Positions 16,928-20,218 of a DNA stretch of 64,000 bases are shown here, one piece after another. How positions within the stretch are numbered: the first letter of the stretch is position 1; every line of letters begins with the position of its first letter. A program made the translations under genes and the position numbers. Source of the DNA: Lingula anatina (taxonomy: Eukaryota > Animalia > Brachiopoda); NCBI GenBank assembly GCA_051362555.1, contig CM120640.1, positions 66,938,788 to 67,002,787 on the forward strand, in the 5' to 3' direction. Below the pieces are notes generated by a model. It was not told the DNA's origin and ran no database searches. It saw only the letters and a program-made list of their open reading frames with translations.

Positions 16928-17591
16928 ATGCAGTTTACCGTCCGCATGGTTGGAGTCGGGGGTAACCCTTTCGAAGTTTCAGCAACAGAGGTTGGCGAGA
17001 TTTTCAAGTTGTACTAGATATACCATTATATATAGATGGCTTAATATATATAAGTATTGTATTTTGTTCCCTTTTTGTATTACATGTATGATTAATGTTA
17101 TTGTTTCAAGTTCAACGTTTTTGACGAGAAATTGAGTATTATGAGACGATTTCTTCGACAAGCTGACATAACTCGAGCGATTCATTCAAATGAAAGTGAT
17201 TTTGAATATATGTGAAAAGTGTTCATTGTTATGTGGCAGAATGACAACTTCAGCTTATCGTTTACCTTGAAGCTTATATTTTCTTATCATCCTTCTCCTA
17301 ATAGGAGTCCACGGTAGACACCCTTCTATTATCAGTAGCTGGTAGCTATGGAATACAGTCAGGTGTGATACAGCTTTTTTATTTAGGTAGGTATTATGTT
17401 TGACTTTTACCTTTAGTTGTCATGTAGTCTAGTCTCTGCACAAATTGGTTCTAGTACATTGCAGTTAGTACTAAGGAGTAGAGCGAGTCTGGAACTAGGC
17501 AGGACAATCAGTTGCAGACTCGGCCAAGACAGAAATGGTACATGAGGGATCATTCATTTTTTATCATCATTTTCACAACTCTACAAGACTT

Positions 17592-17628
<37 letters not shown>

Positions 17629-18418
17629 CTCTTCAGGTGGACAAGGTTAAAAGCTAAAATGATGACCTTTGACAGCAATTGTGATCAACGTTTTTGTTGT
17701 TTTTCAAAAGTGTACAGAGGGCATTAACCCCCCCCCCCCAGCTTATGGTTTGTAGACTTGTAAAAATGATTAAAATGAATGACCCTACTAAACTTACAGT
17801 GAGGGGGGGGGGTACAATGTATTTGGGAATAACATGTTTAGACTACAATATAGATTACATGAGAAGGAAAGTTCCAGATTATTTATGACCCGATGCTCTG
17901 ACATTAATCTTTGACATATGAATTACCCCTTGTTGTTCCCGGTACAAGATAATACAGTGTATTTTTGAACCGATATATTGATTTTACCCAATTGCTGTTT
18001 TTGGTCACCTTACTTAGATAAAAAAAAAGGTGGCACTAAACAGGTTTTGTTTGCTGTGTAGCAGATAACCTCTCTTTCTGTGTACTGGTATATAGGGTGT
18101 TTTTGATATAAGGTTACCAACAGCTGTTGATCCACTTTATATTTTACGTTTCTCCTTTTTGTTCTTAGTCTAAGGTAAAATATGAACTACTGATTTCCAC
18201 TCATTGTTAACTTTTATTCTCCCTGCCTACTGATTCTGAAGTAATATATTTAAATTAAAACAATAAAGTGAGGACAGTATTTTTCAAGAGGGAGCAGTTC
18301 TCAAAACCAGTTTTTATTCCTATTTGCCATATATGATTATAAAAAAATGTTATTACCTTAATATTTGCGGTCATTTTCTGTATCTTATCTTTTTTTATCT
18401 TATTTCTCATGCTTTTCA

Positions 18419-18463
<45 letters not shown>

Positions 18464-20218
18464 TTTTGGGGGGTTTGGAGGTGATTGGTATAGCCCCACA
18501 GCCTCCATTTGACCTCCTTGTCACATTTTTCACACTGCATTCATACAAATATGACACTTCAGACCTTAACACTTTTAGGGCAGCGTTTAGAGTGTGGACA
18601 GCGTCTTGGCGGGTATGGGATAGACTGTGACTGTAGCCTCCTGGCAGTGGTATCTGTTCAGGCGAATACAGGCGGTGGAGAATGGAATCTGTTCATCAAA
18701 GGACTGGATGGCAGAACTTCAACCATTTCCATAAGCAAGGTAACAGTGAAATTCATTTGACTATTATTCACTGCTCAATAGAATCAGATTAAATCGAAAA
18801 AACTCATTTCATATACCCTGTAATTCATTTCTTTCCTTTATTTATTTTAACAACTTTCTTGAAGCAAGACGGCTTATAAATATTTTCTAAAGCATATTGG
18901 AATTTCTTCATAAATGATAAAATTTATTTTGAAAGTTACCGAATTTACAAGAACGTGAAAAGCAACTATTTTCTGTCGTAGTCCTCATATAAAAGCTTGG
19001 GAGATATGCCAGTAGATGAACTCCTCATCAAGGCCAGTGCTGCCACGCAGATACCAAAAGATCAACAAAGACTGATATACGGGGGTAGGTGATTATGATT
19101 GTATTTACTATAAATTTATTTCACTTCACGGACACATTTTCTGTATCATATTGTAGGTTGAGAATAGTATATACCTAAAAGAAGCATTTTAATTTGTTTA
19201 TATCGTACTTTGCATCCACATCATGTGATAAGATTAGCTTTTAATTAGTGATGTGTATTTCTTATTAATTGTCAACATGATAAATGTGACAGAACTAATT
19301 CTGGCTACAGGTAAACAGCTTCAGGAGGGAAGAGGACACACTTTATCCACGTACGGCATTCAGAACCGTTCAACGCTCCACCTGGTGATGCGCCTGCGCG
19401 GAGGTGGAATCGAAGGTGATGGGAGGACACCGTGCGGACATGTTCTTGGTAAGGTTTAGTATACAATGGAAGCGCATAAAGCCAATTTGTTAAAAATTCT
19501 TTCAATTAGCCTTTTGAGAATGCATGCTTGTTTTTAATTGCTTTTAAAGTTAACGAAACTTTTCTTTGATGTAGGTCCTGCCCACGTAAATACCTTTCGC
19601 CAGCAAGTGTCGTCTGGGCAAACTCTTCTGAGCTGCCCTTGCACCCACCCTACCACCCAACAGCAGTGCAAGCAACACCTACCCTACGATACTTGCGTTA
19701 AACGCCTCCCGTTCCTATCTAATGAAGACCGCCAGTTTTTAGAAATTGGAATTTCCAAGAACGCACTCGGCGGGCGTGCCAAGGAGTGTCCGTTGTGCAA
19801 GAGTGTGTGCGTGCGACGAAGCTCGCAAGATAGGTGTCTCCAATGCCCGGTGTGCACCGTCAAGACCAGGCGCTCTTATGAATTTTGCTGGGATTGCCTG
19901 CATGCGTGGAAAGGTGCCTCCAGCGAGAACTGTGGCAACCCGGACTGCTCCTCCTTGGAAGATCCCAGGCTGAAAACTCTCCGTGAGGCACCCCTGAAGA
20001 CCATAGTAGGCGTGCCTAGTTGCCCCTCGTGGCGTGCGTGCCCATCCTGCAGCCGCCTCATTGAGCACGTGGACGCGTGCAAACACATGTCGTGTCCTTG
20101 TGGGGTCACTTTCTGCTTCATCTGTTTAAACGTGCCTGTAAACGGTCGCAGGGGGTGCGGCGCCCACAATGCCCAGTGTCCAGTGGCACCAATACAGACC
20201 GAGCTGAAAGGACGTTAG
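16928..20218 (+). CDS. Tandem ubiquitin-like domains (second ends LVMRLRGG) fused to an RBR-type E3 ligase (half-RING1, IBR, RING2/Rcat)
   Basis: Exons 16928-16990, 17417-17537, 18579-18739, 18982-19084, 19311-19448, 19575-20218; the first two are less certain. Ubl2 reads [17 protein letters not shown]...[52 protein letters not shown]...LQCPVC...[13 protein letters not shown]2: [32 protein letters not shown], with the catalytic Cys-x-His intact. Confidence 0.88.
17545..17786. mobile_element. MITE-like element with internal (AC)n in intron 2 of the Ubl-RBR gene
   Basis: AGGGATCATTCATTTTTTATCATCATTTTCACAACTCTACAAGAC is mirrored imperfectly by GTTTGTAGACTTGTAAAAATGATTAAAATGAATGACCCT. The TSD is unclear. 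Confidence 0.65.
18421..18459. repeat. (GT)n microsatellite
   Basis: Directly visible. Confidence 0.95.

What the first reader, a model, noticed from the sequence alone, without database searches (positions are those of the whole stretch)
16928..20218. ISG15-like di-Ubl ending in RLRGG fused to its own RBR E3 ligase: candidate one-gene modifier-plus-ligase system
Seen: splicing gives Ubl1 ([21 protein letters not shown]...[25 protein letters not shown], divergent, no diGly), then Ubl2 (ubiquitin-like, ending HLVMRLRGG), a short linker and an RBR module with an intact catalytic ACKHM motif. By hand alignment Ubl2 keeps the equivalents of ubiquitin L8, I36, R42, I44, K48, S65, H68, V70, R72 and R74-G76, but lacks K11, K27, K33 and K63. 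Established: ISG15 is a di-Ubl ending LRLRGG that is cut from a precursor; deubiquitinases cleave after LRGG in ubiquitin fusions; R72 favours activation by the ubiquitin E1 over the NEDD8 E1. Inference: cleavage would release a conjugatable di-Ubl and a stoichiometric E3, an invertebrate analogue of ISGylation or a protease-activated ligase. Alternative: the Ubl stays attached and regulates the ligase as in parkin (S65 is retained). I recall similar Ubl-RBR proteins annotated only as ARI-like or uncharacterised, so the family may be catalogued but not understood.
Basis: partly seen in the sequence, partly recalled or inferred. Interest (0 to 1): 0.85.

Follow-up and report, generated by a model that had tools for sequence, protein, structure and literature searches.

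The report
Ubiquitin ligase with a cleavable cap

Summary
The gene is real. Six exons (16928-20218) give a 396-aa protein identical to Lingula anatina XP_013384238.1; RNA reads join three of five introns directly, including the RLRGG exon to the RBR exon. Both Ubls, RLRGG and the catalytic C351/H353 are there. Two corrections. (1) The RBR is not intact: RING1 lacks four of eight zinc ligands and about 26 residues. (2) 'ISG15-like' fails: Ubl1 and Ubl2 share intron positions, so Ubl1 is a local decayed duplicate; only 3 of 45 Ubl-bearing relatives have this layout. What holds is the diGly. In a family of 759 clusters (corals, molluscs, amphioxus, fish, ciliates, a cercozoan, a fungus), 35 of 45 Ubl-bearing representatives have a Ubl ending GG, with R72/L73 kept and residue 74 free, in Ubls only 33% alike. 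That pattern matches cleavable caps such as SDE2-UBL and FUBI. Best reading (0.52): a deubiquitinase removes the cap and the ligase works with ordinary ubiquitin. Conjugation of the released Ubl by its own ligase is not excluded (about 0.14). Cleavage, conjugation and ligase activity are all untested. My ten literature searches found no paper on the family.

The parts
16928..16990 (+). Exon 1: start codon and first two strands of Ubl1 (aa 1-21); intron follows in phase 0 at ubiquitin position 19
   Evidence: low RNA depth in X14, X15, X18 but no joint to exon 2 listed
17305..17386 (+). Exon 2: helix and middle of Ubl1 (aa 22-49); intron follows in phase 1 at ubiquitin G47
   Evidence: joint to exon 3 in 7 RNA reads
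18579..18739 (+). Exon 3: end of Ubl1 (no diGly), linker, first two strands of Ubl2 (aa 49-102); phase 0 intron at ubiquitin position 19
   Evidence: joint to exon 4 in 17 reads
18982..19084 (+). Exon 4: middle of Ubl2 with a 7-residue insertion, I36, R42, I44 equivalents; phase 1 intron at ubiquitin G47
   Evidence: loose end of 3 reads matching the start of exon 5
19311..19448 (+). Exon 5: end of Ubl2, RLRGG, 9-residue link and the C-x-H of the shortened RING1, all in one exon
   Evidence: joint to exon 6 in 5 reads
19391..19405 (+). R164-L-R-G-G168: predicted deubiquitinase cut site (cut after G168)
   Evidence: for coordinates; family conservation; cleavage itself inferred
19433..19777 (+). 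RING1 remnant and helical linker (aa 178-250): one zinc site only (C178, H180, C203, C214); first loop absent
   Evidence: model aligns to HOIP RING1 at Z 4.9, rmsd 3.3, 68 residues
19787..19948 (+). IBR domain with an extra conserved C-G-N-x-x-C (aa 254-307)
20027..20197 (+). RING2/Rcat (aa 334-390) with catalytic C351 (20078-20080) and H353 (20084-20086)
19575..20218 (+). Exon 6: rest of the RBR module and stop codon
   Evidence: RNA depth along it

Best explanation
This is a transcribed Ubl-Ubl-RBR gene whose product is likely made as a precursor: a host deubiquitinase would cut after G168, removing a ubiquitin-like cap and freeing a small RBR ligase that is predicted to work with ordinary ubiquitin. 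Shown: the spliced frame, the domain order, the tail motif, the catalytic residues, the family-wide conservation of R-[LMV]-x-G-G, and Ubl1 as an internal duplicate. Inferred: cleavage; that the cap acts as a folding aid, stability control or brake on the ligase until it is cut (as for FUBI-eS30 and SDE2); and ligase activity. This Lingula copy is a derived member with a half-deleted RING1, so its E2 binding is probably weakened or altered.
For: DiGly at ubiquitin 75-76 in 35 of 45 Ubl-bearing 50%-identity representatives and 17 of 17 in the set, spread over most of the tree, against a chance rate of 0.4%. GG-ended Ubls keep R42 (23 of 33), V70 (28 of 35), R72 (31 of 35), L73 (27 of 35), which the non-GG Ubls of the same family lose (4 of 17, 4 of 17, 2 of 17, 1 of 16). 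Residue 74 is free (P 14, R 6, L 5, K 4 of 35; eight different residues among 17), the residue after GG is mostly S/A/G (26 of 35), and the Ubls are only 33% alike. SDE2 cleavage needs the same pattern: GG and the R72 equivalent essential, the L73 equivalent supportive (PMC13572447 section 8). The ligase does not need its own Ubl: fish members have none detectable (P0065/P0244, P0103), and in ciliate-type members the GG lies after the first Ubl, leaving Ubl-RBR. The gene is under constraint: 6 of 8 coding differences in RNA reads are silent (P 0.003-0.007).
Against: R42 and R72 are also what the ubiquitin E1 reads (my own knowledge), so the pattern does not separate cleavage from activation. 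Proline at position 74 is the commonest residue and I found no paper testing whether it is cut. The counts are not independent, since relatives share ancestry, and cover the best 150 of 759 clusters, many of them partial gene calls; fish gene models may lack a 5' exon. No protein-level data exist here. The missing RING1 loop raises doubt that this copy is an active ligase.
Confidence: 0.52

Rival explanations
1. One-gene modifier plus ligase: after cleavage the Ubl is activated by UBA1 or UBA6, passed through an E2 to the cognate RBR's C351 and conjugated to targets.
For: Ubl2 keeps L8, R42, I44, H68, V70, R72, R74 and GG and is 45% identical to ubiquitin; K48 and R42 are enriched in GG-ended Ubls. 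Precedent that a fused tandem Ubl ending LRLRGG can be conjugated: chicken OASL (PMC8764230, abstract). Same idea was proposed for DWNN in the RING ligase RBBP6 (PMC1360078, passages).
Against: Family Ubls are 33% alike with H68 in 3 of 35 and R74 in 6 of 35, including glutamate and proline at 74; ligases persist with no Ubl or a non-GG Ubl; no E1, E2 or protease gene was recognised among the long ORFs of the window (only five ORFs scanned, genome not held).
Confidence: 0.14
2. The Ubl stays attached and regulates the ligase, parkin-style or as a tethered mimic of donor or allosteric ubiquitin; the tail is conserved because it binds the ligase or a ubiquitin reader, not because it is cut.
For: Ten of 45 members carry only non-GG Ubls and four have a non-GG Ubl next to the RBR, so attached Ubls exist in the family; S65 is kept (23 of 35); proline at 74 might hinder cleavage.
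Against: Parkin-type binding does not need two glycines at 75-76, yet these are the best-kept Ubl columns (41 of 45, 41 of 44). An unmodified RLRGG after an intact I44 patch is the kind of junction that deubiquitinases cut in ubiquitin fusions (PMC8354635, passages).
Confidence: 0.16
3. Protease tripwire: the cap is bait for deubiquitinases of viruses or parasites, and cleavage switches on the ligase as an immune alarm.
For: Residue 74 varies among close relatives while R-L-x-G-G is fixed; the family is large, fast-evolving and patchy, with many paralogue-like clusters; viral proteases cut after di-glycine motifs (PMC9741609, passage).
Against: No infection or induction data; a free position 74 is equally explained by relaxed constraint; an RLRGG tail would also be cut by host enzymes.
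Confidence: 0.1
4. This Lingula copy is a decaying or non-catalytic paralogue (pseudo-ligase or decoy) whatever the family does.
For: RING1 first loop deleted and the conserved W (115 of 127) replaced; long branch; low transcript level; Ubl1 only 16% like ubiquitin.
Against: Open spliced frame, all IBR and RING2 cysteines kept, excess of silent variants, confident fold (pLDDT 93).
Confidence: 0.08

Closest known systems
RBR E3 ligases (ARIH1/HHARI, ARIH2, parkin, HOIL-1, HOIP, RNF216)
   Same: RING1-IBR-RING2 order and catalytic C-x-H; family profile matches ARIH2 at E 2e-19; all listed Foldseek hits of the RBR model are RBR ligases.
   Different: RING1 zinc site 1 lost in almost all members and its first loop deleted in this copy; no Ariadne, RING0 or other known subfamily domain; N-terminal Ubl ends in a diGly.
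Cleavable Ubl fusions: SDE2 (cut by USP5) and FUBI-eS30 (cut by USP36)
   Same: Divergent N-terminal Ubl, conserved R72 and GG, free position 74, partner released (against 69, 99).
   Different: The released partner would be an enzyme of the ubiquitin system itself; family is multi-copy and patchy rather than single-copy housekeeping; cleavage untested here.
ISG15
   Same: Two tandem ubiquitin folds, second ending RLRGG inside a longer precursor.
   Different: Closer to linear di-ubiquitin (31%) than to ISG15 (20-24%); tandem layout is a local duplication; ISG15 is vertebrate-specific (PMC9741609) and uses a separate E1-E2-HECT cascade (PMC13572447).
Parkin
   Same: Ubl N-terminal to an RBR; S65 equivalent present.
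   Different: No RING0 or long linker; Ubl ends in GG (parkin's does not, recalled); no closer sequence match to parkin than to Ariadne.
RBBP6 (DWNN-zinc knuckle-RING) and avian OASL
   Same: Ubl with GG encoded in the same chain as an enzyme; conjugation proposed (DWNN) or shown (chicken OASL).
   Different: RBBP6 is a RING ligase and its GG is limited to some species; OASL's GG is at the natural C-terminus and needs no cut.

Membership tests
RBR E3 ligase | IBR and RING2/Rcat with full zinc ligands | tested here: met
   All conserved cysteines present; profile and fold matches
RBR E3 ligase | Catalytic Cys and His in RING2 | tested here: met
   C351 aligned to the ARIH2 catalytic motif, 130 of 130 conserved; H353 present
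RBR E3 ligase | Canonical two-zinc RING1 | tested here: not met
   Four of eight ligands and about 26 residues missing; so filed as a variant, not a canonical member
RBR E3 ligase | E2 binding and ubiquitin transfer through the catalytic Cys | not testable with these tools
   Needs biochemistry
Cleavable Ubl fusion (SDE2/FUBI type) | N-terminal ubiquitin fold ending in conserved R-x-x-G-G inside one open frame | tested here: met
Cleavable Ubl fusion (SDE2/FUBI type) | Cleavage after GG by a deubiquitinase | not testable with these tools
   Inferred from motif only
ISG15 | Tandem Ubl ending LRLRGG | tested here: met
   MRLRGG after two ubiquitin folds
ISG15 | Homology to ISG15 beyond the ubiquitin fold; tandem layout conserved among relatives | tested here: not met
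   31% to di-ubiquitin against 20-24% to ISG15; layout in 3 of 45; shared intron positions show local duplication
ISG15 | Infection- or interferon-induced expression, dedicated E1/E2/E3 and conjugation | not testable with these tools
   No genome held; run conditions unknown
Parkin subfamily | Ubl, RING0 and phospho-S65 activation | tested here: not met
   No room for RING0: 9 residues between Ubl2 and RING1; no RING0 Pfam match; phosphorylation not testable

The most novel reading that the evidence does not exclude
An ancient eukaryotic family of self-supplying ligases: each gene makes its own private ubiquitin-like modifier and the RBR enzyme that attaches it, one to one, with the modifier's tail diversifying fast. 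In its boldest form, copies such as this one that have lost the E2-binding loop of RING1 load the Ubl onto C351 with little or no help from an E2.
Probability: 0.14. Interest if true: 0.88.

Novelty: new variant of a known kind. Interest (0 to 1): 0.52.

Why it matters
If the cap is cut, this is an RBR ligase switched by proteolysis, a mode of control not among those I know for parkin, Ariadne or LUBAC, in a family reaching from ciliates to fish that my ten searches did not find described. It also offers natural tests of two open points: what a RING1 with one zinc site can still do, and whether Ubls released from fusions (as with FUBI) are ever conjugated. If the Ubl is conjugated by its own ligase it would be a new class of modifier system. 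The ISG15 analogy specific to this locus is not what makes it interesting.

Tried and rejected
Complex prediction of Ubl2 with its own RBR gave no answer (score 0.30, mark 0.34, controls not folded) and is not used either way. No RNA holder was listed in the run index; raw reads were laid instead. No whole genome is held, so Lingula paralogues, E1/E2 partners and proteases could not be counted; within the window no second copy was found. Two locus searches with the broad alignment could not run; a single-protein scan of viral contigs and a phage search found no relative; prokaryote genomes were not searched. BFVD lists RBR and ubiquitin proteins of giant viruses only as weak fold matches. The first splice attempt had wrong boundaries. 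The slower tree did not finish; the FastTree version (97 rows; rows with under 200 aligned RBR residues, and Ubl-less rows cut at the N-terminus, were dropped) has weak deep support and was used only to show that GG-ended Ubls are widespread. RING1 classes are pattern matches and mis-score some rows. Literature searches for the family, for cleavable Ubls (58) and for R74P (62) found no paper on it; subscription papers, including the animal RBR survey cited in PMC2904391, were not seen, and no supplements were read. Four look-ups of earlier scan findings returned nothing. Rejected: S65 as a parkin signal; the GGG in the Ubl1-Ubl2 linker as a second cut site (it lies beyond position 76 and lacks R72).

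Full report
The gene. The region holds six GT-AG exons on the + strand (16928-16990, 17305-17386, 18579-18739, 18982-19084, 19311-19448, 19575-20218) that splice to one open frame of 396 residues. The protein collection holds this sequence letter for letter as XP_013384238.1, uncharacterized protein LOC106154439 of Lingula anatina; that record may come from the same assembly and is not independent support. Independent support comes from raw RNA reads of the same species label, 8 of 9 offered runs laid: joints 17386>18579 (7 reads), 18739>18982 (17) and 19448>19575 (5), a loose end for 19084>19311 (3), depth confined largely to exons, and no listed joint for exon 1 to 2. One read spans the GG codons and the RBR exon. 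Expression is low, a few reads deep. Of 8 coding differences in the reads, 6 are silent, against 24-28% expected without selection (P 0.003-0.007).

The domains. Pfam finds two ubiquitin stretches and a weak IBR match. AlphaFold gives two ubiquitin folds and an RBR with mean pLDDT 89.9 but pTM 0.46, with low confidence at both linkers, including residues 167-171. The RBR model matches only RBR ligases among the listed Foldseek hits (best VIA Z 6.0, rmsd 5.3, 131 residues, HOIL-1), and a family profile matches ARIH2 and ARIH1 (E 2e-19, 5e-19). IBR and RING2 are complete, with C351 and H353 at the catalytic positions. RING1 is not: the alignment to ARIH2 shows ligands 5 and 6 replaced across the family; only 3 of 144 rows showed all four site-1 cysteines by pattern. 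Most relatives still keep the first loop, [CD]-x-[ILV] (47 of 64 examined, 8 lacking, 9 unclear). The Lingula protein has lost it: 9 residues separate G168 from C178, against 24 or more elsewhere. Both lie in one exon, and RNA reads list no indel there, so this is not a missed exon.

The ISG15 likeness. The introns in Ubl1 and Ubl2 fall at the same places, phase 0 at ubiquitin position 19 and phase 1 at G47, so Ubl1 is best read as a decayed tandem copy of the family's own Ubl exons. The pair aligns better to linear di-ubiquitin (about 31%) than to ISG15 (20-24%). Among the best 150 of 759 clusters, 45 have a detectable Ubl: 28 one Ubl ending GG, 3 non-GG then GG (this layout), 4 GG then non-GG, 10 non-GG only. 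The other 105 mix partial gene calls with members that seem to lack a Ubl, such as fish proteins. A di-Ubl modifier is therefore not a family trait.

The diGly. It is a family trait. Named members come from corals, bivalves, amphioxus, hemichordates, a ray, a teleost, ciliates, Paulinella and an Endogonales fungus. G75 and G76 are the best-kept Ubl columns (41 of 45, 41 of 44) although GG-ended Ubls average 33% identity, and they occur over most of the tree. R42, K48, V70, R72 and L73 go with the GG and are lost without it; L8, I44, H68 and R74 do not differ significantly (kinship inflates these P values). In 17 Ubl-bearing proteins, R-L-x-G-G is fixed while x takes eight values. Even a Ubl too divergent for my profile still ends GG (P0064). 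Some enzyme or reader of a ubiquitin-type tail is acting on these domains.

Mechanism. The simplest reader is a deubiquitinase. SDE2 cleavage needs GG and the R72 equivalent, is helped by the L73 equivalent, and was not reported to need the next residue (PMC13572447, passages and section 8 part 1). FUBI is 36% like ubiquitin, is cut from eS30 at its diGly, and has no known conjugating enzymes (PMC8354635, passages). The family fits this type: divergent body, fixed tail, free position 74, small residue after the cut, and ligase-only members that resemble the cut product. I infer a precursor whose cap is removed to release, stabilise or unblock a ligase that uses ordinary ubiquitin (0.52). Conjugation of the freed Ubl remains open because R42 and R72 also serve E1 (my knowledge) and chicken OASL shows that a fused tandem Ubl can be conjugated (PMC8764230, abstract); the same was proposed for DWNN in RBBP6 (PMC1360078, passages). 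I give it 0.14. An attached regulatory Ubl (0.16), a tripwire for pathogen proteases (0.10) and a pseudo-ligase copy (0.08) are the other readings. None of cleavage, activation or ligase activity was tested.

Novelty. The proteins are in databases under automatic names. A survey lists 14 RBR subfamilies (PMC2904391, passages); I could not see the animal survey it cites, so I cannot say whether this family was among them. Ten full-text searches (listings only, apart from the six papers named) found no paper on a diGly-Ubl RBR family.

Noticed in passing
window 51364-52404 (+): Large exon of a ONECUT-type gene (CUT domain, E 1.9e-34); unrelated to the finding.
   Followed up: partly
window 34510-34908 (-): Exon with weak beta-propeller (WD40-like) matches; likely part of a multi-exon gene on the minus strand.
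   Followed up: partly
P0009 and P0017: A Jimgerdemannia (Mucoromycota) member nests among coral, hemichordate and amphioxus sequences with support 85-95; the Atlas's top cluster is also mostly Mucoromycota. Possible gene transfer or slow evolution; not tested.
   Followed up: no
P0156: An 803-aa amphioxus model with four Ubls before the RBR, two of them ending GG: repeated Ubl duplication in this family.
   Followed up: partly
P0030, P0105, P0135: Ciliate-type members have Ubl(GG)-Ubl-RBR, so a cut would leave a parkin-like Ubl-RBR.
   Followed up: partly
P0124: A USP-type deubiquitinase domain (PF00443, E 2.7e-19) fused in front of this RBR; a real fusion would pair the ligase with its own protease, but it may be a gene-model chimera.
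   Followed up: no
P0155, P0173: Shorter records in amphioxus and coral clusters keep Ubl-GG but lack IBR or RING2 parts; may be isoforms or partial calls.
   Followed up: no
window 17545-17740: Intron 2 holds a dispersed repeat: RNA reads on both strands match it only partly and run on into unlike sequence.
   Followed up: no
window 15855-15960 and 16350-16525: Two similar stretches upstream of the start codon, seen by eye; possibly a local duplication in the promoter region.
   Followed up: no
P0068, P0115: A few members keep all RING1 cysteines, suggesting that zinc site 1 decayed within the family.
   Followed up: partly
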